Source: a phage
Direction: 5' to 3' (one strand)
Sequence record: PZ445443.1
Length of the DNA stretch: 64,000 nt
Part shown: in pieces, positions 10,701-62,808 of the stretch
Layout: each line of letters opens with the position of its first letter
How positions within the stretch are numbered: position 1 is the stretch's first letter
Translations under genes and position numbers: made by a program
The notes under the pieces: model-generated
The model's database searches: none
What the model saw: only the letters and a program-made list of their open reading frames with translations
What the model was told of the DNA's origin: nothing

Positions 10701-13209
10701 CTATATCATCATGAGTGATCTAAGATCGAACATGGATGGAACATCCATATCTATGCAAGTTCCGGTAACAAACGGATACAAGCGTGTTGTGATGATCATT
10801 AAGTGCGATCTGATAGGTAAGCAAGTTCTTGCAGAGAACGGAACTTCCACCCACCTATTTGAGACTGCTCTGCACTATCAGTTTGCTGATTCACCTTTTG
10901 CAGGGGATAAGAGAATATCTGACACAGACGCTGTGCGATGCAAGAAATTTATGCTAGGTGGTGGGTGGTGGTGGTATGAATTTGACTTAACAGACAAATT
11001 CACCGACACGTCTAAAGTAGTGACGGGGCTTCGTCTAGACCTTGGCGAAAACATGCACAAAAGTGTTTGTGATGGCACCTACGGTGACCCAACAATCTAC
11101 TTAAAGTATGTCTCTTTTGAGCACCCAGAGGATGTTGTTTATGGTCCAAAACTGAGACTGTTTGGCAATTGGATTGCTAAAGACAGGGTAGGTATGGGCA
11201 AGAAGGTAAGAGGCTTCTTAATGGATGCAGGTACAGAGGACATGCTAGTCAATGCAGTGTGGCCTGAATTACCTGGGACTCAGTGGAACAACTCAGCCAA
11301 ATCTATAAACTGGTTCAATATCCACAGGGCTATGTGGACAACCAACTGTTACCTGTGGAAAGAGCTGAATGACGGCGCTTTCGGGTTCACAGGCGGCAGA
11401 AGAATGGCAATCATTTGCTGGACAACGTTGCAAAGATGTTATGACCATGACTACGAGATTGGAGGTAGGGCATGGAAAAATATTAGGGATAGAATCATAA
11501 CCAACTTTGCAGATCCTAACGGTGGTGGAGCGTATGGCTTCGACTGCAGCAGGCTCATCCATTTGAACGGATCCTCTGCCTACAAGAAAGAAGGTTACTC
11601 TGGGTCTATGATAGAATGGGGCCTGGTGAAAGATGCTCGCGTGCTGATGGGTCAACAACTTGCTGCTGCAATAGGTCCTAATGCAGTGCAATCTGTTAAA
11701 CCTGCGTGGTTTGATATCCCATTGTGGTCATCCGGTACACCAGGAACTGCTGCAATCAACCCTACCACGGGGGATCTGGAAATCTCTTGGGAGGACTTGA
11801 AGCAGGTTGGAGGCTGGGATAAAACAGGGTATCAGGTCCAGTGGTGGAGGGCTGACGGATCTTTAGCCGCTGATGAGTTTGTTAAGGACAATTTCTACAC
11901 TATGTCCTCTGCAAAAGCACAGGAATTGTTCGGTCAGGCAACTCCGTCAACGATCACCATGTCTATGTGCTGTAAAGACAACAGGACTGGAGCTTTGGGG
12001 CCAAGGGTTGCTAAAGTTTTCTCAGGTATTAAATGGAATCTACCTGTCCAAAGTATTTCATGGAAGCAAATAGGTGATAACAAGCTGCTGGTTACCCCTG
12101 CCTGTCAGTTCAACGCAACTCTTAACGTTGATCCTGCTGTTGCGGCAAACTCAGCTAAAGCTTCTGACTTCTCTGTGTCTAACACTGCTATGGCAGATGT
12201 TAGGAAGATTGACACGCTGAACGCCAGAATTACCTGTAAAAACACTTATGGCACATTCCAAATCATCAACAACTTCACAGATGCTGATTCTAAGGTAGTG
12301 AGGACAGCAAGCCAGACTCTGAGTTTAGGAACTCTGGCCTATGCGGCCCTGATCACCGAGCAGTCGGCAACACTCCAAGGAGGTGGTGTAGGCAAGTCCA
12401 TTGCAACACCTGTGTGGAAGCCAAATGAGTGGGTTGTGTTTGATTTGACTGTGGACTTCTCCAGCGATAATAACTGGACATGGGTAAGGAATTGTTTGTC
12501 ACAATTGATGGGAGGTCCAAGCTCCGTTAGTGATAGTCACGACTCTACTGACCCGAGTGTGTTCCAGGTAGGTAAAACTCACCCAGAGACTGGAGAAACG
12601 TTGCCTGACAGGAAGTATGCGTTGGTTTGCATCTCTTACGGGAAGGCAGATGTCACCTTCTCAGGGACACACACTTATAACGGAACCTACAATTTCTCAA
12701 GGAAGTATAGTCTCAAAGCAGGGAACATTATAGACGAGGTTGGTGCACTGTATAATCCTGGCAACGGCATAGGGATTGTGGGTGGTCAACTGCAGATGCA
12801 GGAACCTTCTATTACCCCTTCCAACGTATCTGGGATTAGAAAGACTTGGGAAAGTAGCAATACCAACATTGCAACAGTGGATGCTACCACAGGACTGGTA
12901 ACATTTAAAGCTACTGGGAATGTCACCATAAAGTTTGTAGTTACAGATGATGCAGGCCGCAAAACGTCCTCAACATCATTCACTGTCAAACAGATGGCAC
13001 CTCAGTGGTTTATTTGGGAAGGAAATCCTCTTGACGGGGCCTACCCTAGACCTGCAGGAACGTCTAATATGAGGGTCTTTACCGGTCCGGTAATGAACAA
13101 TCCGACCACAACCACCAACCCTACATTTTTGGTGCTTACATACCTGAAATTATTGGCCTACCAAGGAACCAGATACAACTGCTTTTCGGAGCAGGTGTTG
13201 ATGGTCTAG
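7753..13209 (+). CDS. large tail fibre / host-specificity protein (1818 aa) with C-terminal Ig-like (Big_2-type) segment; 3' end probably frameshifted
   Basis: 1818-aa ORF; Big_2-like stretch TWESSNTNIATVDATTGLVTFKATGNVTIKFVVTDDAGRKTSS; a -1 frame continues to 13379. Confidence 0.65.
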   Translation: MLPIPLLKLGRHFLDKRGGIKELAVLSYPIDNSDGTSNTVSYVNSLAILFDDGQLNITGYNRFGECRTGDLDTINYPNEAAWNVDHVWRADRAFVIRTFDNKFFYIGCTAGLIGSEAAGGNDVCVREWTPLPEQIVTGLHLDTHPERLVEVMGGVNNTVWVIAAPEADGMLHLYGSGNNTYGSLHVDKSQHATPVKIGETSESPETGPWKNPRINCEVHDNSVIFGGPNGFWIAGYDFLRNNSRNDLVWPPVQITRNDLRGIPADEEWKGFMCGPNGAVIATQRMHRPDDQQLVNVFYGQNIWGDDTWRELNITYTHEVMMARGYGTSGIFFNNGTKQYRGFSRNLCNDIGAQSANNSPRADFIHYQALATAKYVEQRLPVSWTESVYFQGIHREGFLGTFTVVNGKLWWSGIPRGSFTGSNNLFGGRLNSQGFTEIPENWYKNVPVDSWGVEDIFDVNGVSSVSNIYIGDTVKMKLKPQPEGATFIIDKIELVNAAGTVVTDANYQFSTNWNHGGANEVVVTQYNRNVNRRGLYSVKITYHDKHGTGRTHTTRTLNWNTIVPAYPSDGKWHTVGRNKQFHVNDTVYFGLNGTQPAVEGDTSYMVRLHRMDAGSVTYDVTQEIYDQRRATYDNIVKTQALWEFNPNGKGGKMLQVNEQNGTSLTVHEHPDPWPDPGKPHPGARTLKIVSHDAGYFGIRWEATVRYVDGTTNNIGITLGGTSEDNSLKIAYTPRGISIDNMDVVRNGYGDVNVKVTLGEHLGGERIIMYAFDHDPRTNGTYANQAWSYLINAPEPNTKEFYYGMKRDVCKKTGTHDWIAICVKDERTAWDEPVNRWFIGIPTRSDKYVAEYIVCMGGTNLNMCWNEDVNKYSDYDYMRDYSCNLWFNQTTGYPPRQARVNPAIFTDTQVFLTKQANEVQTFKNKYDPNKWFYNCYGAFFWGPGELPGGGSCFEAATYASDRFMGQVKKYKIIPGPETLGNAVDPYIIMSDLRSNMDGTSISMQVPVTNGYKRVVMIIKCDLIGKQVLAENGTSTHLFETALHYQFADSPFAGDKRISDTDAVRCKKFMLGGGWWWYEFDLTDKFTDTSKVVTGLRLDLGENMHKSVCDGTYGDPTIYLKYVSFEHPEDVVYGPKLRLFGNWIAKDRVGMGKKVRGFLMDAGTEDMLVNAVWPELPGTQWNNSAKSINWFNIHRAMWTTNCYLWKELNDGAFGFTGGRRMAIICWTTLQRCYDHDYEIGGRAWKNIRDRIITNFADPNGGGAYGFDCSRLIHLNGSSAYKKEGYSGSMIEWGLVKDARVLMGQQLAAAIGPNAVQSVKPAWFDIPLWSSGTPGTAAINPTTGDLEISWEDLKQVGGWDKTGYQVQWWRADGSLAADEFVKDNFYTMSSAKAQELFGQATPSTITMSMCCKDNRTGALGPRVAKVFSGIKWNLPVQSISWKQIGDNKLLVTPACQFNATLNVDPAVAANSAKASDFSVSNTAMADVRKIDTLNARITCKNTYGTFQIINNFTDADSKVVRTASQTLSLGTLAYAALITEQSATLQGGGVGKSIATPVWKPNEWVVFDLTVDFSSDNNWTWVRNCLSQLMGGPSSVSDSHDSTDPSVFQVGKTHPETGETLPDRKYALVCISYGKADVTFSGTHTYNGTYNFSRKYSLKAGNIIDEVGALYNPGNGIGIVGGQLQMQEPSITPSNVSGIRKTWESSNTNIATVDATTGLVTFKATGNVTIKFVVTDDAGRKTSSTSFTVKQMAPQWFIWEGNPLDGAYPRPAGTSNMRVFTGPVMNNPTTTTNPTFLVLTYLKLLAYQGTRYNCFSEQVLMV

Positions 13210-16611: not shown

Positions 16612-17057
16612 AACAGATATAGCTCCTTATGAAAGTGGTCTTTTAATTTCTCACTGAGAAACTTCTTGATACCTTCCTCTAAAGTGTTTTCGATGTAGTC
16701 CAGCTTAACTGCTTCGATGGACATATCATAGATTGCCAGCTCTAAGCTGTCAAGTCCCATCATAGCATGAACCATAAGATTTTCATCTTCAGATACATTC
16801 AGGGGACTTCCTATAACATCTGGAGGCAGAATAGTTTCCCAATTATTCTGGGTGGTAGTTCTCCCGCCATCTACTTTACGGCGCAGTTCGAATGTGTTCT
16901 TAGTGTAGAACACTTCATAAGAAACGATACGACTGTCACTCTCATAATAAACGAAGTTCAGGTAGGAGCCTAGCCGCAGTCGGCAAACTTCCACCCCAAA
17001 CCATTGTTTCTTATAAGAATTCAGGCTAATGCTGTCGCATTCACGTTTGCTCAACAC
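16608..17057 (-). CDS. hypothetical protein (149 aa)
   Basis: ORF track; start overlaps upstream stop. Confidence 0.5.
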   Translation of the reverse strand: MLSKRECDSISLNSYKKQWFGVEVCRLRLGSYLNFVYYESDSRIVSYEVFYTKNTFELRRKVDGGRTTTQNNWETILPPDVIGSPLNVSEDENLMVHAMMGLDSLELAIYDMSIEAVKLDYIENTLEEGIKKFLSEKLKDHFHKELYLL

Positions 17058-29915: not shown

Positions 29916-30253
29916 GTTTGTGGAGAAATATAGTTAACTACGTGTGTGGCAATCCAACTCCTGAAGAGAAGGATGTTGTGATTCACGATTTTACTAAAAG
30001 ATCTCGTGAAAAAGATCTACTGCTAACAAAGGTGACTGATAAAGATCCTGCAGTAGGGGACTGGGCAGGTTTTGCGTTCACATCGGACAAATACACCTTT
30101 AACAAAGGTGACTATCTTGTTGTGGATTTTAACGAGGACATCGAGGGTGCTGAACCTTACTATCAGACCCTTATTGTTGCAGGGTGTGTTGATCTCTCTG
30201 CAGGCATGCACAGTTTGATTCTTTTTGAGCTTGACTCTGAAGACCTTCAGTAG
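29912..30253 (+). CDS. hypothetical protein (113 aa)
   Basis: ORF track; ATGA coupling to helicase gene. Confidence 0.5.
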   Translation: MSLWRNIVNYVCGNPTPEEKDVVIHDFTKRSREKDLLLTKVTDKDPAVGDWAGFAFTSDKYTFNKGDYLVVDFNEDIEGAEPYYQTLIVAGCVDLSAGMHSLILFELDSEDLQ

Positions 30254-46831: not shown

Positions 46832-47160
46832 CAGAGATCATCGTTTCAACTGCAGGGTATGTATTCCTGACAATCATTGCGCTGGCTATTCTGGTGGCGG
46901 TGTATGGATTTGTTATCCTGCCTATTCTTGAGACATTTAGTTTGTGTCGGTGTTGGAGAAAAGCTTACGGACCACAACCGTGGAAAGACTGGTTCCATTT
47001 GGTGCGTATAGCGTTCTCTTATGCCTATGACCACTCCAGCAGTGCATGCGTAACCGGGTACCATGCCTACAACTGGAACTGGGAAGGTGTGGGAAGGTGG
47101 ACTGTTACAAAAACTATACCCTTGCGTTTATATAAAGGAAAGAACAAACTGGGCACCTGA
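46828..47160 (+). CDS. predicted membrane protein (110 aa)
   Basis: ORF track; hydrophobic segment VFLTIIALAILVAVYGFVILPIL; ATGA coupling. Confidence 0.5.
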   Translation: MTEIIVSTAGYVFLTIIALAILVAVYGFVILPILETFSLCRCWRKAYGPQPWKDWFHLVRIAFSYAYDHSSSACVTGYHAYNWNWEGVGRWTVTKTIPLRLYKGKNKLGT

Positions 47161-47164
47161 TATT

Positions 47165-47700
47165 TTTAAATTGCCAAGTTGCCAGAAATCAGGAGAATTT
47201 CTAAAATGGATTTTCTCCTGATATTTTGAACACATAGATATTTTAAAATTCTTAGAAAATCAGAAAATGGATCGAAAACTAAAATGGATTTTTTCAACAC
47301 AGGCGCGGAAAATTGTGCCAATCTATCTAGCCGTTTGCACCATATTCGAGATCACCGTTCCAGATTTCCTACACATACACACCTCTCCACCATACCTTTC
47401 TCCACTCACTCTTAGTGATTTATGACGGAAAACCCATCACTATCTTGAAGTTGCGGTGCAGTTTTCCAAGTACTCGATCTGTTTTTCGTTTCAAAGATTG
47501 AATTTTCTGAAAATTTTTCTCGATAAATTTCTCAGTACTCGATCTGTTTTTCGTTTTCTGAATCGGATTTTCTGGAAATCGTTCCGGCTCTCGACCTGAA
47601 ATTTTTGGGGACGAAATCGATTTTTCGTTTTCAGAAATGGATTTTTAAAATTTCTATATAGGAATATTTTAGTGGATACTATTTTATAGGAAATTGTTAC
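47165..47700. repeat. AT-rich non-coding region with inverted and direct repeats (origin-like)
   Basis: Inverted repeat TCAGGAGAA/TTCTCCTGA (47189-47221); 23-bp direct repeat AGTACTCGATCTGTTTTTCGTTT at 47469 and 47534; recurring AAAATGGAT and TTTCGTTTTC motifs; no ORF. Confidence 0.45.
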
Positions 47701-47759
47701 GGAGGGTAATTAGCGTGCTAATTAAATTTATTAAATGTGAGGAGTTCTCATTTAGAATT

Positions 47760-48110
47760 TTGAATGATAATCATTCTCGTTTGCAGAATAACGGGCAGGC
47801 CCGGTGATTGTCTCCCGGCCCCTGTTGCCCCGGCTTGTTATTATAGTATCACACAGGACAAAGAAAGCAAGGATTTTTTGCATAAATTTTTAAATGATAA
47901 TGATAACCGTTCTCATTTTATGCAGCGCCCATCCCCGGTGGTTGTCTCCCCCGTCACCGGTGCCTGCCGTCCTTTCGATAGGTATATTGTGCTACCTGGC
48001 GGGGCCGCTGTCAACACCTTTCAAAAAAAAAATTATAACCAGGTGCGCCCACTGCCAGTACCTGGCGGGGCCAACCTGGCAGGTCCGCGCTATAAAGTGA
48101 ACAGATGAAG
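47760..48110. repeat. two related GC-rich structured elements in an AT-rich intergenic region
   Basis: Both units share AATGATAAT...TTCTC-TTT-GCAG...CCGGTG-TTGTCTCCC; further TGGCGGGGCC repeats at ~47998 and ~48062; track ORF 47764..48108 is Pro/Gly-rich and coincides with the repeats. Confidence 0.35.
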
Positions 48111-57981: not shown

Positions 57982-58401
57982 ATGAATATTAAATCTGATA
58001 ATCCGGCATATAGCTTTGATAACGCTTTTTGTCACGGTCCGGCGGCGAAAGGTTTTGAAATTGATGGTAAACTAGTTATTGTCAATGTTGACGGGGAAGA
58101 GGTTGCAGTGTATCCGGTGGCAGACGTTAAAAGCCGTTTACAATGCCGCATCGATGTTACCGCATATCAGCTTGATCCGGTCCGCGTAGTCTCCCTGGTC
58201 CTGGAGGAAGAAATCAAAGCAATGCACCACAGCAATAAGTTTATCGGTGACGCGCAAGATAATATGAAGGTATGCCGCTATAAAGTTAATGAAGTGCTTA
58301 AAGAATATGGATTTAAGGATCTGATGATCAAACGTGATGAAAAATTTCGTTATCGTAACGACCTGGCAAATCGAATCTATGAAATATACGAATCATTATA
58401 A
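57982..58401 (+). CDS. early protein (139 aa)
   Basis: ORF track; RBS AAGAGG. Confidence 0.55.
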   Translation: MNIKSDNPAYSFDNAFCHGPAAKGFEIDGKLVIVNVDGEEVAVYPVADVKSRLQCRIDVTAYQLDPVRVVSLVLEEEIKAMHHSNKFIGDAQDNMKVCRYKVNEVLKEYGFKDLMIKRDEKFRYRNDLANRIYEIYESL

Positions 58402-58420
58402 TTTTTTAACTGAATTATCA

Positions 58421-58445
58421 AGGGGCTTAGGCCCCTTTCTTTTTG
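58421..58445 (+). terminator. rho-independent terminator closing the early cluster
   Basis: AGGGGC-ttag-GCCCCT followed by TTCTTTTT. Confidence 0.65.
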
Positions 58446-59039
58446 TCTGCTCTTCCCCTACCATAAACGGCCATACATGGCAAGTGGAATAATTGACGAG
58501 CCATCAATCCCACACACTGTACAAATATACATGTAAAATAACTATTGCATAACTTTTCATTGTGTGGTAGCAGGGCCATTTTTACACGTTTTTCCTTCCA
58601 AAATTGCACGTAATGCAGCATTTGCACAAAATTTAACCTGATGCATATCTTCAATAGCTTGTCAACAACTAAAAATCTTTATAAGTCATACACTTACATA
58701 ACTACAAAAGCGTTTTCTACGTGAAAAATCGAGTATAACTATAGCCGCCAGACCTCAGAATTTACGTACGCTCGACATTCTATAGCCTGCTAAGCATTTA
58801 TTCCAACCATAGAATAACGGAATAGTCAATACCTGCATAAAATAATTATTCGTGTAAACTGCATAACATAAATCGGCCCAGGTGTCAACATTTTTCGTAA
58901 ACAGTCCGAAATTATCACTATGAGTTATCATAAACAGGGAAATCTTTAGTCGTCTAATGTTTACTGTACATTACTATACTGACTGGAATCATTAGATGAC
59001 TAAGAGAAAGATAAGAAATAATTAACAATACAATTATTT

Positions 59040-59345
59040 TATCTGTAACAATAAGGCAACTATGCAAACGAATGGCATGGCGCGACGGAGTCGCGACATA
59101 ATATAAAAGCAGTAACCATCACCCCCGTGATAGTTTGTCTGCAAACTATTAATCAGATCATAGTTGCCTTGTATTTAGTTAATCATGACATAACAAGCAA
59201 GGCAACTATAGATCTGCTAATAGTTGCCCTGCTTTTATATTATGTCATAGAAACACCCGAAGGGGTGACCAAAGGTCACCTGGCATGGCCAGTGAAAGAT
59301 TATTAACTTGCTAATAGTTATCATGCAAACGAATGGCATGGCTGA
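59040..59345. repeat. palindrome-rich segment bounded by a 20-bp direct repeat
   Basis: ATGCAAACGAATGGCATGGC at 59062-59081 and 59323-59342; palindromes CGCGACggaGTCGCG, GATAGTTTGtctgCAAACTATT, GGCAACTAT...ATAGTTGCC, GGTGACCaaaGGTCACC; long-range inverted repeat GACATAATATAAAAGCAG / CTGCTTTTATATTATGTC. Confidence 0.45.
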
Positions 59346-59350
59346 TTATC

Positions 59351-59490
59351 GGTGTGTAAACAGTCAATCATGTAAATGGTTAGCATGTGAACAATCAGGA
59401 ATGTAAACAATCCAGTGTGTAAACTAATAGGTGTGTAAAAGTGTCATGTTGTGTCAGTTAGGTCACATTATGTCATATTGTGTCAGACAA
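59351..59490. repeat. iteron-like array of TGTAAAC / TGTCA(G/T) short repeats
   Basis: GTGTGTAAACAG, CATGTAAATGG, CATGTGAACAA, AATGTAAACAA, GTGTGTAAACTA, GTGTGTAAAAG at ~16-bp spacing, then TGTCAT/TGTCAG repeats. Confidence 0.45.
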
Positions 59491-60012
59491 GTTTTTCTCC
59501 TCTTTGTCAAGTGCTGCATGAAAAATTTACAATCTGGTATGGTAGCATTTTTGCGGCCCTGTTTACATTCAGGGGTGTATGTATAATCCTTGTTGTGTGG
59601 GCGTTTAGACGTCTGGACGGTCAGAAGTCTGCAGGTTAATATCTAATCTATTGGCTGCTAACTATATCCCACACAAATAGTAAGAAATATGATTGTTATA
59701 TGCGTAAACTGTAACTCATGTTATCAATCCCTGTATGTATCGCCAGTGGTGCGCATAATGGGTATTATGTTAAATTGCCCGTAATGATAAAGGTTCTCAC
59801 AATGATAGGTATTCTCATTCACCCCCACAAAATAGATTGCAAATGTTGTGCCACTGTGTGAACGGCCTAGCCTATTAATTTGCCTCACTGCCTCGATATT
59901 TGAGAATTGTTATAAGAATGAGAAGTATTCCCATTTCGTCCGCCTGGCAGCACTCCTGTAGGTCAGGTCAAAATCGTGGTAGAACTGGACCTGTTCAGAT
60001 ATTTCTGGCTGA

Positions 60013-61202
60013 CTCTTCAGGTCTGTGTGGGAAAAGCCAACCTCTCCGGCGGGGCAGGGGATAGGTCAATTAAAAAATTTACGTGGTGTATGAAGCGCTC
60101 TTCAGGTAAGGCAGGTATTATGGGATGAAACCCTCTTCAGGCAATGATATTTGTGGGTGTGATATTTGCTGGAAAGCCAGATATGACGGGACTCCCGGCG
60201 GGGCAGGGGTGGTACAGACAGGGAAAATATGAAGGATGTGGTTGGGTAGATTGATCAGACAGGTAGAGTATGGAATATGTTACAAGTATGTTAAATATGG
60301 AGGTTGAATATCTGTAGGATTTGTGTGTAAAATCAAAGACTTAAGTGGTGTTGTGGTATTTTCTATAAATAATTCAAGTTTAATAGGTGATATTTGTCTC
60401 TATCCGCTTTGTGTGGTAAACAGATTCAGATGAGATTGGTTTACAAGTGTATACATAATATACAAATTAAAGATACAAGAAACCCCCCTCCCCCTTCGGC
60501 TACCATTCACCTTTTCCTCTGACTGGTACTTAAACACTTATTCAGACTCTTCAGGTTATCACCTATATATCATATGGCAGTGACTGGTGTCCTCCGGCCC
60601 CTCTTTCGTCACCCGTCCGCTTCGCCATGCTAATGCCATAGCCAATGGTTCGGTTGTTCACCCTGTTCACTCAGGTGTATCTCCATACCCCTTCAAACCG
60701 AAGAGAACAGAAAACCCGAATTACTCGGTAAAAGAAAAGAGAAGAACTTAATTTTATCAGGATAGGCAAGAATGTCAAGGCATGACTGCTCACTAAACAA
60801 GCAAACAGTCATGTGTGGGAGGTAAGTGATTGTGGTGGTAGGAAATTTAGTTGAAAGATGTGTTATAGGTGCTTCCAGCACTTTAGCCGGGCAGCTAATT
60901 GTGTGTCAGTCCAGCGGTTCATCCTCTACTTCACTGAAATCAATGTTCATGGTCTCCTCCCAACCATCGATCTCAGCACAAGAGTGGAGTTCTTTAGGGT
61001 TTACTCCCAAAGCCTCAGCAACAGAGTCTATATTTAACACCTCTGGCAGGTATGATTCATCAAATTCAAGGTAAATCAGGCCACGAGTGTTGTCAGCCCC
61101 ACCAAATATTTCTATCTTCATGAAATCTCCTCTGGAAATGAGAGTGTGAACAGGGTTTTATGCGTTCCAATACGCTGGAATTATACACGTTTGCCTCTTC
61201 AG
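60013..61202. repeat. dispersed CTCTTCAGG 9-mers (5 copies) and two copies of CTC(C)CGGCGGGGCAGGGG
   Basis: CTCTTCAGG at 60013, 60098, 60133, 60547, 61194; CCGGCGGGGCAGGGG at 60046-60060 and 60195-60209. Confidence 0.4.
60906..61121 (-). CDS. hypothetical acidic small protein (71 aa)
   Basis: ORF track; ATG 61121 with GAGGAG 6 nt upstream. Confidence 0.5.
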   Translation of the reverse strand: MKIEIFGGADNTRGLIYLEFDESYLPEVLNIDSVAEALGVNPKELHSCAEIDGWEETMNIDFSEVEDEPLD

Positions 61203-61242
61203 GCCATGCTTTAGCATGAGGAACCTGTGTGGGCTCGGTGCT

Positions 61243-61656
61243 TCATAGTCTACCACCTCTGAACTCTTCGTGCTCAGGCATAATAGAGAACCAGATATCT
61301 ACGATGTCTCCCCACGTTAGGTCATCAGCCTCAGGATCTACCTGGAGCGAAGATGGAGAATCTTCAGAATCGAAGTTTTCCTCTTTCACTGGCTCAGCCA
61401 AGGGACATATAGCCACTCCTTTGGATGTCTCTTCAGATGCATGTGTGTTTATCATGTTCCACCCGTGAGTATTCCGGCAACAGCCACTATGGACGTAATG
61501 ATCATCAGAATCACCACCAAAACCTCTGACAATGTTTTCATTGTGTATCCCATATTCTCCAAACGATGTGTGGATACTATCACTGGAGCGACAATGTGTC
61601 AACAGAAACGCCGCGAGGGTTTGGTTAAAATCCGAGCGTATGGTGATTTGGGTCAA
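61243..61656 (-). CDS. hypothetical protein (137 aa); start uncertain
   Basis: ORF track; TTG start without clear RBS; competing + strand ORFs are Ser-rich and less plausible. Confidence 0.35.
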   Translation of the reverse strand: MTQITIRSDFNQTLAAFLLTHCRSSDSIHTSFGEYGIHNENIVRGFGGDSDDHYVHSGCCRNTHGWNMINTHASEETSKGVAICPLAEPVKEENFDSEDSPSSLQVDPEADDLTWGDIVDIWFSIMPEHEEFRGGRL

Positions 61657-61759
61657 AACGGACGTGCGTTCTCGCTACGCTCGAAATATAGAGTTGTTTG
61701 CAGGAAGCTCTTAAACGCTCTGTAATGAGATTAACTACCCAAGGTATGCAATCGTGCAC

Positions 61760-61790
61760 CAGATAAAGAAAAGGACGCCACAGAGCGTCC
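61760..61790 (-). terminator. rho-independent terminator (- strand)
   Basis: GGACGC-cacaga-GCGTCC with T-rich run on - strand. Confidence 0.5.
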
Positions 61791-61815
61791 TAGGTGTCTT
61801 AAATTTGATATTTTG

Positions 61816-62115
61816 CTATACCCACGAGGGCTTATCAAGATTGGAGTAGCTGAAAGGTGTCAAAAGGTGACTGTCAAAATCTCTCAAACTATCCAAATCT
61901 TTTTCCTCGTCCTGACACCATCTGTGCCTACATTTATTGTTGTAGTGCATGGAATGCATAGCGTTCTGCAACTTAACAGGCACAAGTGATTCAGGAGTAG
62001 ATAGTATTGTAGGGTATGCCAGAACCACCTCAAACAGTGGAAACACATCGAAACTAAAGTCTACCTCTGCAGAGGTTGATGGCATATAGGAGTATTTAGC
62101 CGCCTTTGTAGACAT
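61816..62115 (-). CDS. hypothetical protein (99 aa)
   Basis: ATG 62115 with GAGGTGG upstream (track start GTG 62127). Confidence 0.45.
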   Translation of the reverse strand: MSTKAAKYSYMPSTSAEVDFSFDVFPLFEVVLAYPTILSTPESLVPVKLQNAMHSMHYNNKCRHRWCQDEEKDLDSLRDFDSHLLTPFSYSNLDKPSWV

Positions 62116-62502: not shown

Positions 62503-62808
62503 TTATTCTACAGAGCGTTTGAACAGAATGTCTGCCTCAGACATGTGCTCAACCTCTTCTTCAATCTTAGCGCGACGTTTTTCAGCTTCGTAGCGGATAT
62601 CAAACTCTGTAGCCACCAAAGATTTGATGAATTTAGGAGAATACAGATGATCCTGCTTCTCAACAAGAATGATATCCTTGATGGCATCTTTCAAATCTTT
62701 AATCTGAAGCTGGAGTTCCACCAGTTCTTCAATTGTTTTGCGAAGGCGATCACGTTCTGCAGTGTCAGAAGGAAGAGAGGTGAACAGTTCAACTTTAGAT
62801 TTAGCCAT
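62503..62808 (-). CDS. hypothetical coiled-coil protein (101 aa)
   Basis: ORF track; ATG 62808 with AAGGAG upstream; charged heptad-like sequence. Confidence 0.55.
   Translation of the reverse strand: MAKSKVELFTSLPSDTAERDRLRKTIEELVELQLQIKDLKDAIKDIILVEKQDHLYSPKFIKSLVATEFDIRYEAEKRRAKIEEEVEHMSEADILFKRSVE

What the first reader, a model, noticed from the sequence alone, without database searches (positions are those of the whole stretch)
60013..61202. Five dispersed copies of the 9-mer CTCTTCAGG within 1.2 kb
CTCTTCAGG occurs at 60013, 60098, 60133, 60547 and 61194, all in one orientation, spanning the end of the non-coding region and the start of the - strand gene block. Five copies of a 9-mer in 1.2 kb is far above chance, so it is a candidate recognition site for a regulator, nuclease or packaging factor.
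Basis: seen in the sequence. Interest (0 to 1): 0.4.

Follow-up and report, generated by a model that had tools for sequence, protein, structure and literature searches.

The report
Oriented 9-mer array beside phage genome end
A 9-base word (CTCTTCAGG, or CCTGAAGAG on the other strand) is repeated five times, always pointing the same way, in the DNA just before the 459-bp terminal repeat that marks the physical end of this rV5-like coliphage genome. The same word clusters at the same place in related phage genera, so it is probably a protein-binding signal for cutting and packaging the genome or for controlling transcription into the end.

Summary
It is the most clustered 9-mer both in the window and in the whole genome of phage rV5.

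The window is a Vequintavirus (rV5-like myovirus). Its 459-bp direct terminal repeat (DTR) maps to 59486-59944. Read toward the DTR, the motif is CCTGAAGAG, and the copies lie 68, 153, 188, 602 and 1250 nt before the DTR boundary.

- All five copies are kept in nearly all of 14 GenBank relatives and in an 81-86 %-identical metagenomic relative.
- CCTGAAG[A/T]G also clusters, in the same orientation, upstream of the DTR in Mydovirus KPP-1 and Seunavirus PVP-SE1 and 4MG, where the flanking DNA and genes are not alignable.
- Certrevirus CR3, whose genus is reported as headful-packaging, has no such array in its terminal gap.

My best reading (about 0.4) is a terminus-proximal recognition array for the packaging or junction-processing machinery. 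It resembles the CCTAAAG repeats that flank the terminal repeat of phage T7.

The main rival (about 0.25) is an operator for promoters that read toward the DTR, because some copies overlap the -35/spacer of sigma70-type promoters.

No binding protein is identified, and none of this has been tested experimentally.

The parts
60013..60021 (-). Motif copy e (CCTGAAGAG read on the - strand, toward the DTR). It is the closest copy, 68 nt from the DTR boundary. It is preceded by CCCACACAGA and by the C-rich element.
   Evidence: invariant in 15 genomes while the bases on either side vary
60098..60106 (-). Motif copy d, 153 nt from the DTR. It shares a 20-nt context (ATGAARCSCTCTTCAGGYAA) with copy c.
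   Evidence: mutated in 2 of 15 genomes (FV3 and PMBT16)
60133..60141 (-). Motif copy c, 188 nt from the DTR. It overlaps a promoter-like site on the - strand, TTGCCT-16-CATAAT (60144-60117).
60547..60555 (-). Motif copy b, 602 nt from the DTR, inside the near-invariant 300-nt block.
61195..61203 (-). Motif copy a, 1250 nt from the DTR, in the intergenic DNA upstream of - strand gene 60906-61121. On the - strand it reads CCTGAAGAG-N9-TATAAT.
61429..61437 (-). One-mismatch copy (TCTGAAGAG), inside or at the start of the - strand gene 61243-61455. It lies next to a degenerate copy of the 45-nt hairpin element.
59486..59944 (.). 459-bp direct terminal repeat, i.e. the physical genome ends. In the virion DNA the genome starts at 59944 reading leftward and ends at 59486.
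   Evidence: The records of bov11CS3, bov25_3, YN3 and Pr121LW start exactly at these boundaries, and ECP2309 carries the segment at both ends. The literature gives 458-459 bp terminal repeats (PMC7471380, PMC6563267).
59945..59999 (.). Indel-rich hypervariable junction between the DTR boundary and motif copy e. As a result, the distance from the motif to the cut varies by up to about 55 bp between strains.
60046..60060 (-). C-rich element (CCCCTGCCCCGCCGG on the - strand), first of two copies. A similar element (CCCCTCCCCCGCCCGGAGGG) precedes the DTR in 4MG, PVP-SE1 and KPP-1.
60195..60209 (-). C-rich element, second copy.
60751..60778 (-). Near-consensus sigma70-type promoter (TTGACA-16-TG-TAAAAT) reading toward the DTR, at the head of the near-invariant block 60480-60780.
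60480..60780 (-). Block that is almost invariant across 15 genomes. It has no ORF above 45 aa and no Rfam match. It is a candidate cis-element or non-coding transcript and contains motif copy b.

Best explanation
The five co-oriented CCTGAAGAG sites are binding sites for a sequence-specific DNA-binding protein. They mark the unique DNA immediately upstream of the terminal repeat at each genome junction in the replicating concatemer.

The most likely role is recognition of the junction by the packaging machinery, either the small terminase subunit or an accessory factor. The fixed orientation would give polarity. The large subunit would then cut at the conserved DTR start (GGCGGACG here, AGACGGACA in other genera), tens to hundreds of bp away.

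Promoters that read toward the DTR, notably the conserved one at 60778, may transcribe or open the junction, as phiOR does in T7.

Shown: the position next to the DTR, the single orientation, the conservation, and the recurrence in other DTR-bearing genera.

Inferred: that a protein binds the sites, which protein it is, and that the purpose is packaging.
For: 1. The DTR is 59486-59944 (PMC7471380; PMC6563267). The copies lie 68, 153, 188, 602 and 1250 nt from its boundary, all on one side and all in one orientation, with none inside the DTR or beyond it.

2. Conservation. Only 3 of 45 motif columns vary across 15 genomes, against 24 % of columns in the surrounding non-coding DNA (Fisher p = 0.002). 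Bases directly beside the 9-mer vary. All five copies are exact in L020, a relative only 81-86 % identical.

3. Recurrence without alignable flanks.
- KPP-1 (DTR 116316-116829 per PMC9862379) has CCTGAAG[A/T]G at locus 1690, 1742 and 2700, all upstream of the DTR, and none in 12 kb sampled elsewhere.
- PVP-SE1 has 4-5 copies within 380 nt of its terminal gap, out of 5-6 in 58 kb.
- 4MG has 3 copies, one about 60 nt before the putative DTR start.
- CCTGAAG is the top k-mer shared by the pre-DTR DNA of all four genomes: 15 copies against 0 in reverse.

4. Natural control. Certrevirus is reported as circularly permuted with headful packaging (PMC7344957). CR3 has no array in its terminal gap.

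5. Precedent. T7 carries co-oriented CCTAAAG repeats around its 160-bp terminal repeat, CCTAAAGAG 78 nt before the right repeat, and phiOR reading toward it. The T7 packaging signal Pac comprises PacB, bound by the small terminase subunit, and the cut site PacC (PMC9860248). The SPP1 pac site contains direct repeats (PMC4737164).
Against: - No protein is identified. The neighbouring genes have no Pfam domains.
- The distance from the nearest copy to the cut varies by up to about 55 bp between strains.
- Copy number and position differ between genera. PVP-SE1 lacks the DTR-proximal copy that 4MG has.
- Several copies in KPP-1, 4MG, CR3 and this window sit in promoter or terminator modules, which fits a transcriptional role.
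- The motif columns are not significantly more conserved than their own +-9-nt flanks (p = 0.15).
- T7 terminase proteins show no BLAST similarity to rV5, so the T7 parallel is an analogy only.
- In SF6/SPP1 the pac repeats turned out not to be preferred by the small terminase DNA-binding domain (PMC4737164).
Confidence: 0.4

Rival explanations
1. The sites are operators for a phage-encoded transcription regulator. The regulator binds at about -31 to -23, over the end of the -35 hexamer and the start of the spacer. It controls a small set of promoters in the last ~1.3 kb of the genome that read toward the DTR. The copies without a promoter would be auxiliary or decayed sites.
For: - KPP-1 and 4MG have TTGACCTGAAG[A/T]G-N10-TATACT directly upstream of a gene. 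KPP-1 2700 has TTGACC-17-TATTCT.
- Window copy a is CCTGAAGAG-N9-TATAAT upstream of gene 60906-61121. Copy c is TTGCCT-16-CATAAT.
- CR3 copies have CCTRAAGWG-GCRRACCTGT..ATAACT, one of them followed by an RBS and ATG.
- A highly conserved gene of a regulator family (phrog_639) lies 1.3 kb away at 62503-62808.
- In KPP-1, 4MG and PVP-SE1 the motif also sits in the loop of the terminator just upstream, giving a terminator-plus-promoter cassette.
Against: - None of the 25 annotated canonical rV5 promoters carries the word.
- Copies b, d and e here, and most PVP-SE1 copies, lack a usable -10.
- The copies nearest the DTR have no downstream gene.
- The promoter scan finds no excess of promoter-like sites in the region: 14 against 9.8 expected.
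- This reading does not explain why the gap array is present in the DTR genera and absent in headful CR3.
Confidence: 0.25
2. The sites are iterons of a replication origin placed next to the genome end, bound by a phage initiator protein.
For: - They are asymmetric 9-mers in one orientation, like DnaA boxes or iterons.
- The cumulative GC skew peaks at 60-61 kb, and the rV5 paper notes a skew change here (PMC3606486).
- An AT-rich tract lies at 60340-60480.
- A strong promoter reads into the region.
- T7 has secondary origins at phiOL and phiOR near its ends (their role as origins is from general knowledge).
Against: - The spacing is irregular (35, 85, 414 and 648 nt), not a tandem array.
- The skew change coincides with the switch in transcription direction (PMC3606486).
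- A more iteron-like repeat region exists at 47160-47760.
- The replication genes are T7-like (rV5 annotation), and that kind of system does not use iterons (general knowledge).
Confidence: 0.1
3. The element acts in RNA. Transcripts running toward the DTR carry CCUGAAGAG as a processing, stability or protein-binding site.
For: - Every copy, including the four in-gene copies in rV5, is in the sense orientation relative to local transcription.
- In KPP-1, 4MG and PVP-SE1 one copy forms the loop of a terminator hairpin, GGGAGCC-UGAAGA-GGCUCC-UUUU.
- A strong promoter at 60778 would transcribe copies b to e.
Against: - There is no Rfam match down to E = 5.
- Folding of the conserved block is no better than folding of shuffled sequence (z = +0.7).
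- The window copies share no common local structure.
- The sense bias of the in-gene copies is explained by their coding for Pro-Glu-Glu.
Confidence: 0.1
4. The copies have no function of their own. They are leftovers of local duplications, of shuffled terminator-promoter cassettes, or of decayed coding sequence.
For: - Copies c and d share a 20-nt context, and copy e and the 61429 near-copy share 24 nt at 75 %.
- KPP-1 appears to have duplicated the promoter module on either side of four small genes.
- The same 9-mer encodes Pro-Glu-Glu in four rV5 genes.
- A small hairpin element has inserted at copy a in L020.
Against: - The exact 9-mer is preserved while its flanks diverge. All five copies are kept in an 81-86 % identical relative.
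- It is independently enriched in three further genomes from two other genera, with unrelated flanks, always in one orientation and on one side of the DTR.
Confidence: 0.1

Closest known systems
Short co-oriented repeats (CCTAAAG) flanking the 160-bp terminal repeat of phage T7 (SRL/SRR of Dunn and Studier; names from memory), together with the T7 PacB/PacC packaging signal
   Same: - Both are short-DTR genomes, and PhageTerm classes KPP-1 as T7-type (PMC9862379).
- Both have a 7-9-nt word repeated in a single orientation in unique DNA next to the repeat.
- The words are nearly identical: CCTAAAG against CCTGAAG. T7 even has CCTAAAGAG 78 nt before its right repeat, compared with 68 nt here.
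- CCTAAAGAG also occurs in the PVP-SE1 and CR3 clusters.
- In both, a promoter reads toward the repeat (phiOR; 60778 here).
- A repeat-like word overlaps the -35 of an early promoter in the same register: T7 A1 TTGACTTAAAG, KPP-1 TTGACCTGAAG.

   Different: - T7 has many more copies (11 at the left end and 5 at the right), on both sides of the repeat and inside it. Here they lie on one side only and none is inside.
- T7 gp18 and gp19 have no BLAST similarity to rV5.
- T7 uses its own RNA polymerase.
- The function of the T7 repeats is itself not established, to my knowledge.
Terminase small-subunit recognition repeats in pac/cos sites (lambda cosB R sites, SPP1 pacL/pacR boxes, P1 pac hexamers)
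   Same: Multiple short sequence repeats lie within a few hundred bp of the terminase cut site. In SPP1 the pac region also spans promoters (PMC4737164).
   Different: No binding or genetic evidence exists here, and the small terminase of these phages is not identified. The spacing is looser (35-650 nt). For SF6/SPP1 the repeats were shown not to drive binding of the DNA-binding domain (PMC4737164).
Promoter-early stem-loop (PeSL) cassettes of T4-type phages (from memory: Arbiol et al. 2010)
   Same: In KPP-1 and 4MG a terminator hairpin followed by a sigma70 promoter forms a ~90-nt module that is nearly identical between genera. In KPP-1 it brackets a block of small accessory genes. Both halves carry the 9-mer.
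   Different: PeSLs are scattered through hyperplastic regions and are not tied to a genome end. Here the word is confined to the pre-DTR DNA, and most window copies are neither hairpins nor promoters.
T4 middle promoters (MotA box centred at -30)
   Same: At copies a and c, and in KPP-1, 4MG and CR3, the word occupies about -31 to -23 upstream of a TAnnnT-like -10.
   Different: There are only a handful of sites and they are all local. There is no MotA or AsiA homologue, according to the rV5 paper's search of T4 factors (PMC3606486). Some of the sites keep a canonical TTGAC -35.

Membership tests
T7-type terminal-repeat-flanking short repeat arrays | Lies in unique DNA immediately adjacent to a short direct terminal repeat | tested here: met
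   The DTR is 59486-59944. The copies begin 68 nt from its boundary.
T7-type terminal-repeat-flanking short repeat arrays | All copies in one orientation | tested here: met
   5 of 5 here. Across four genomes, 15 CCTGAAG against 0 reverse complements in the pre-DTR DNA.
T7-type terminal-repeat-flanking short repeat arrays | Repeat unit CCTAAAG | tested here: not met
   The unit here is CCTGAAGAG, a 6 of 7 match to the T7 heptamer. Exact CCTAAAGAG is seen only in PVP-SE1 and CR3.
T7-type terminal-repeat-flanking short repeat arrays | Arrays on both sides of the repeat and inside it | tested here: not met
   No copy with 2 or fewer mismatches stands out inside the DTR or to its left. KPP-1 has one reversed copy inside its DTR.
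T7-type terminal-repeat-flanking short repeat arrays | Homologous terminase (gp18/gp19) | tested here: not met
   tblastn and blastp of T7 gp18, gp18.5 and gp19 against rV5 give no hit below E = 0.08.
Terminase recognition (pac/cosB-type) site | Located within a few hundred bp of the terminase cut | tested here: met
   Three copies lie within 200 nt of the DTR boundary.
Terminase recognition (pac/cosB-type) site | Bound by the small terminase subunit and required for packaging | not testable with these tools
   This needs EMSA or footprinting and mutant or plasmid-transduction assays.
Sigma70-type promoter | -35 and -10 hexamers with 16-18 nt spacing at each copy | tested here: inconclusive
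   Only copy c passes the consensus scan. Copy a has a perfect TATAAT but a poor -35. Copies b, d and e fail. Copies in KPP-1 and 4MG pass.
Replication-origin iterons | Regularly spaced tandem repeats next to an AT-rich unwinding element | tested here: not met
   The spacings are 35, 85, 414 and 648 nt. The Tandem Repeats Finder tool was not run.
Known RNA families (Rfam 15) | Covariance-model match | tested here: not met
   No match at E <= 5 on either strand of 58500-61600.

The most novel reading that the evidence does not exclude
CCTGAAGAG in rV5-like myoviruses and CCTAAAG in T7-like podoviruses are versions of one terminus-proximal signal. Phages with short direct terminal repeats and T7-like replication modules would use it to mark concatemer junctions for processing and repeat duplication. 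That would be a shared 'end code' spanning unrelated virion types, read by proteins too diverged to recognise by sequence.
Probability: 0.1. Interest if true: 0.75.

Novelty: new member of a known kind. Interest (0 to 1): 0.45.

Why it matters
Vequintaviruses are widely isolated and are used in E. coli phage cocktails, yet how their 459-bp terminal repeats are recognised, cut and duplicated is unknown. The rV5 genome paper simply labels this 2.6-kb gap 'non-coding'.

A conserved, oriented 9-mer array beside the cut site gives a concrete target that can be mutated. It could help to:
- define the packaging signal, which is needed for engineered or non-replicating transducing particles;
- identify the missing small terminase or regulator by DNA-affinity capture;
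- test whether the long-unexplained CCTAAAG repeats of T7 have a general role.

Tried and rejected
- Rfam scan of 58500-61600 at E <= 5: nothing.
- Hammerhead-like reading of CUGAAGAG: rejected, because no GAAA/helix partners lie on the same strand and Rfam found nothing.
- Folding of the conserved block on both strands: no better than shuffled sequence.
- A small protein gene in the gap: no convincing ORF.
- A general phage promoter element: rejected, because the 25 annotated rV5 promoters lack the word.
- Scan of IMG/VR for paired motifs (CCTGAAGAG-N15-45-CCTGAAGAG): swamped by coding repeats and uninformative.
- The search for related loci with the 71-aa neighbour: only 3 loci, though one of them (L020) proved useful.
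- Using the conserved regulator gene to locate the terminal gap in other genera: it is not syntenic there. The gaps were found instead from the published KPP-1 DTR coordinates and from gene maps.
- Homology between genes flanking the gap in this window and in KPP-1: none by tblastx or BLASTP.
- T7 terminase homology: none.
- Pfam on ten neighbouring proteins: no domains.
- Literature search for the 9-mer together with these phages: nothing.
- Literature search for the T7 repeat arrays: nothing in the open-access library.

Full report
**1. The observation**

It also occurs once on the - strand at 29960. That is six copies against 0.63 expected from dinucleotide shuffles, and none of 100 shuffles reached six.

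It is the only 9-mer with five copies within 1.2 kb in the window and in the full 137,947-bp genome of phage rV5. None of 100 second-order Markov simulations gave any 9-mer with four copies in 1.2 kb.

In rV5 the word occurs nine times. Five are in this cluster. The other four are scattered and are in-frame CCT GAA GAG (Pro-Glu-Glu) codons in the sense strand of genes. Near-copies are not enriched in the region, so the copies are sharp rather than a degenerate family.

**2. Where it is**

The window is a Vequintavirus (rV5-like E. coli myovirus). Its closest relative is phage nimi at 97 %, and 121 phage records match.

Genes on the + strand end at 58401 and genes on the - strand end at 60906. 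The 2.5 kb between them is the region the rV5 paper drew as a grey box labelled 'non-coding' (PMC3606486).

Several database records start or end inside it:
- bov11CS3, bov25_3 and YN3 begin exactly at window 59944, reading leftward.
- Pr121LW begins at 59486.
- ECP2309 carries 59486-59944 at both ends.

This matches the published 458-459-bp terminal repeats of Vequintavirus phages Gotham, EdH4 and HdK5 (PMC7471380; PMC6563267). So 59486-59944 is the direct terminal repeat (DTR).

In virion orientation, which is the window's - strand, the motif reads CCTGAAGAG. It lies in the unique DNA just before the right-hand DTR copy, with 68, 153, 188, 602 and 1250 nt between each copy and the boundary. 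No copy lies inside the DTR or on its other side.

**3. Conservation within the genus**

I aligned the window with 14 GenBank relatives that are 88-95 % identical to it across the gap. Copy d is altered in FV3 and PMBT16, and copy a in ECP26. All other copies are intact, while the bases directly flanking copies c, d and e vary.

Three of 45 motif columns vary, against 233 of 961 in the right-hand non-coding DNA (Fisher p = 0.002). Against the motif's own +-9-nt flanks (13 of 90) the difference is not significant (p = 0.15).

A more divergent IMG/VR relative, L020, is 81-86 % identical over the region and keeps all five copies exact and co-oriented.

The alignment also shows three other things:
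- The DTR is better conserved than its surroundings.
- Both DTR boundaries abut indel-rich hypervariable DNA. The distance from copy e to the cut therefore varies by up to about 55 bp.
- 60480-60780 is almost invariant.

That invariant block has no credible ORF and no Rfam match. It begins with a near-consensus sigma70 promoter on the - strand (TTGACA-16-TG-TAAAAT, 60778-60751) that reads toward the DTR.

**4. Other genera**

*Mydovirus KPP-1.* The DTR was determined from reads as 116316-116829 (PMC9862379). It lies in the same kind of gap between converging gene blocks. The flanking genes show no tblastx or BLASTP similarity to those here. Even so:
- CCTGAAGAG occurs at locus 1690 and 1742, and CCTGAAGTG at 2700. 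All three are upstream of the DTR and co-oriented.
- One reversed copy lies inside the DTR.
- None occurs in 12 kb sampled elsewhere in that genome.

*Seunavirus PVP-SE1.* CCTGAAG[A/T]G occurs at 16665, 16693, 16717 and 17045, with CCTAAAGAG at 16796. These all fall within 380 nt of the terminal gap. They account for 4 of 5 matches (5 of 6 with the looser pattern) in 58 kb.

*Seunavirus 4MG.* There are copies at 12498, 12550 and 13973. The last is about 60 nt before a sequence homologous to the KPP-1 DTR start.

An unbiased comparison of the pre-DTR DNA of the four genomes puts CCTGAAG first among shared repeated 7-mers, at 15 copies against 0 in reverse. CACACAA comes second at 14 against 0, and it often lies 2-25 nt upstream of the motif.

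The junctions share a syntax:
- a C-rich element (CCCCnCCCCGCC(C)GGAG);
- sometimes AAATATC;
- then CCTGAAGAG;
- then 55-70 nt;
- then a DTR that starts RG(A/C)CGGAC.

*Certrevirus.* The genus is reported as circularly permuted with headful packaging (PMC7344957). In CR3 the equivalent gap has no array. There is one CCTAAAGAG at its edge and two copies further in, among the small genes. This is a single negative case, but it points the way the packaging reading predicts.

**5. What the copies overlap**

Some copies sit in transcription signals.

- In KPP-1 and 4MG a ~90-nt module is nearly identical between genera. It consists of a terminator hairpin whose loop is the motif (GGGAGCC-TGAAGA-GGCTCC-TTTT), followed 52 nt later by TTGACCTGAAG[A/T]G-N10-TATACT upstream of a gene.
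- KPP-1 2700 is TTGACC-17-TATTCT and reads toward the DTR.
- In the window, copy a is CCTGAAGAG-N9-TATAAT upstream of gene 60906-61121. Copy c is TTGCCT-16-CATAAT.
- CR3 copies show a similar layout.

In all of these the word occupies about -31 to -23, a position where a bound protein would interfere with or replace -35 recognition.

Against a purely transcriptional role:
- Copies b, d and e, and most PVP-SE1 copies, lack a -10.
- The copies nearest the DTR have no gene downstream.
- None of 25 annotated canonical rV5 promoters contains the word.

**6. Comparison with T7**

I checked the T7 record directly.

- CCTAAAG occurs 11 times in the first 340 bp: three inside the 160-bp repeat and eight just beyond it.
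- It occurs five times in the last 270 bp.
- All copies have one orientation.
- CCTAAAGAG lies 78 nt, and CATAAAGAG 144 nt, before the right repeat.
- phiOR, 550 nt upstream, reads toward that repeat.
- The A1 promoter has TTGACTTAAAG, the same register as TTGACCTGAAG in KPP-1.

The T7 packaging signal Pac is described as PacB, bound by the small terminase gp18, plus the cut site PacC (PMC9860248).

The resemblance in word, orientation, position and accompanying promoter is striking. It is still only an analogy:
- T7 gp18 and gp19 have no BLAST similarity to anything in rV5.
- T7's arrays lie on both sides of the repeat and inside it.
- The role of the T7 repeats is, to my knowledge, unresolved.
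- In SPP1/SF6, pac-site repeats were shown not to be what the small terminase DNA-binding domain prefers (PMC4737164).

**7. Verdict**

The enrichment is real and selected, and it is tied to the DNA just upstream of the terminal repeat in at least three genera.

| Reading | Confidence |
|---|---|
| Oriented protein-binding array that marks the concatemer junction for the packaging or end-processing machinery | about 0.4 |
| Operator for promoters reading toward the DTR | about 0.25 |
| Origin iterons | about 0.1 |
| RNA-level element | about 0.1 |
| Functionless duplication | about 0.1 |

The first two readings are not mutually exclusive. In SPP1 the pac site overlaps promoters.

I found no paper that mentions the word in these phages. 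I rate it a new member of a known kind (repeat arrays beside phage genome ends), of moderate interest, with simple decisive experiments available.

Noticed in passing
window 60480-60780: About 300 nt that are almost invariant across 15 Vequintavirus genomes, more conserved than the neighbouring genes. There is no ORF above 45 aa and no Rfam hit. The block starts with a near-consensus sigma70 promoter on the - strand (TTGACA 60778-60773, 16-nt spacer, TG, TAAAAT 60756-60751) that reads toward the DTR. It is a candidate non-coding transcript or cis-acting element.
   Followed up: partly
window 59080-59485 and 59945-59999: Both boundaries of the 459-bp terminal repeat abut indel-rich hypervariable DNA, with strain-specific insertions of 25-56 nt on the right side. 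The repeat itself is better conserved than its surroundings.
   Followed up: partly
window 59348-59486: On the other side of the DTR there is a different repeat set: GTGTGTAAA and TGTAAAC, three copies each. TGTCATRTTGTGTCAG occurs twice (59442 and 59471), and the second copy ends exactly at the DTR boundary 59486.
   Followed up: no
window 47160-47760: A second repeat-rich non-coding stretch of about 600 nt. It has three 47-nt repeats spaced 65-74 nt apart, several AAAATGGATTTT units, a dip in G+C, and two Fur-box-like sequences just downstream (15/19 at 47760, 16/19 at 47896). It looks more like an iteron-type origin or regulatory region than the finding does.
   Followed up: partly
window 59256-59299; 61382-61432; locus L020 2882-2927: A ~45-nt double-hairpin element (CCCGAAGGGGTGACCAAAGGTCACCTGGCATGGCCAGTGAAAGA) lies left of the DTR. 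A degenerate inverted copy lies next to the near-motif TCTGAAGAG at 61437. In the IMG/VR relative L020 a copy is inserted immediately after motif copy a, with AAGAG duplicated at the junction. It may be a small mobile or recombination-prone hairpin.
   Followed up: partly
window 59945-60905 (- strand); L027, L148, L152 pre-DTR DNA: CACACAA/CCACACA is a second co-oriented k-mer shared by the pre-DTR DNA of all four DTR-bearing genomes (14 copies against 0 in reverse). It often lies 2-25 nt upstream of CCTGAAGAG.
   Followed up: no
window 59934-59944; L027 ~3017; L148 ~17216; L152 ~14037: The first bases of the terminal repeat are similar across genera: GGCGGACGAAA here, and AGACGGACA in KPP-1, PVP-SE1 and 4MG. 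This suggests a conserved terminase cut-site sequence. T7's repeat also contains ACGGAC at positions 12-17.
   Followed up: no
L149 12617-13221; L027 3995; L148 18308: Fur-box-like sequences, matching up to 16 of 19 positions of GATAATGATAATCATTATC, recur in the terminal non-coding gaps of CR3, KPP-1 and PVP-SE1. The window's DTR has only weak versions (13/19 at 59780 and 59798).
   Followed up: no
rV5 record 58027-61929 (L023 8027-11929), outside the window: rV5 has the gene order 89-aa ORF, two Rz-like spanins, large terminase. This mirrors T7's gp18 (89 aa), gp18.5/18.7, gp19. BLAST shows no sequence similarity, but the 89-aa ORF is a candidate for the unidentified small terminase.
   Followed up: partly
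phage database records MG0656xx: About 19 records labelled 'Campylobacter phage' (UNVERIFIED) are 90-98 % identical to this E. coli Vequintavirus region. They are probably mislabelled or are contaminant coliphages.
   Followed up: no
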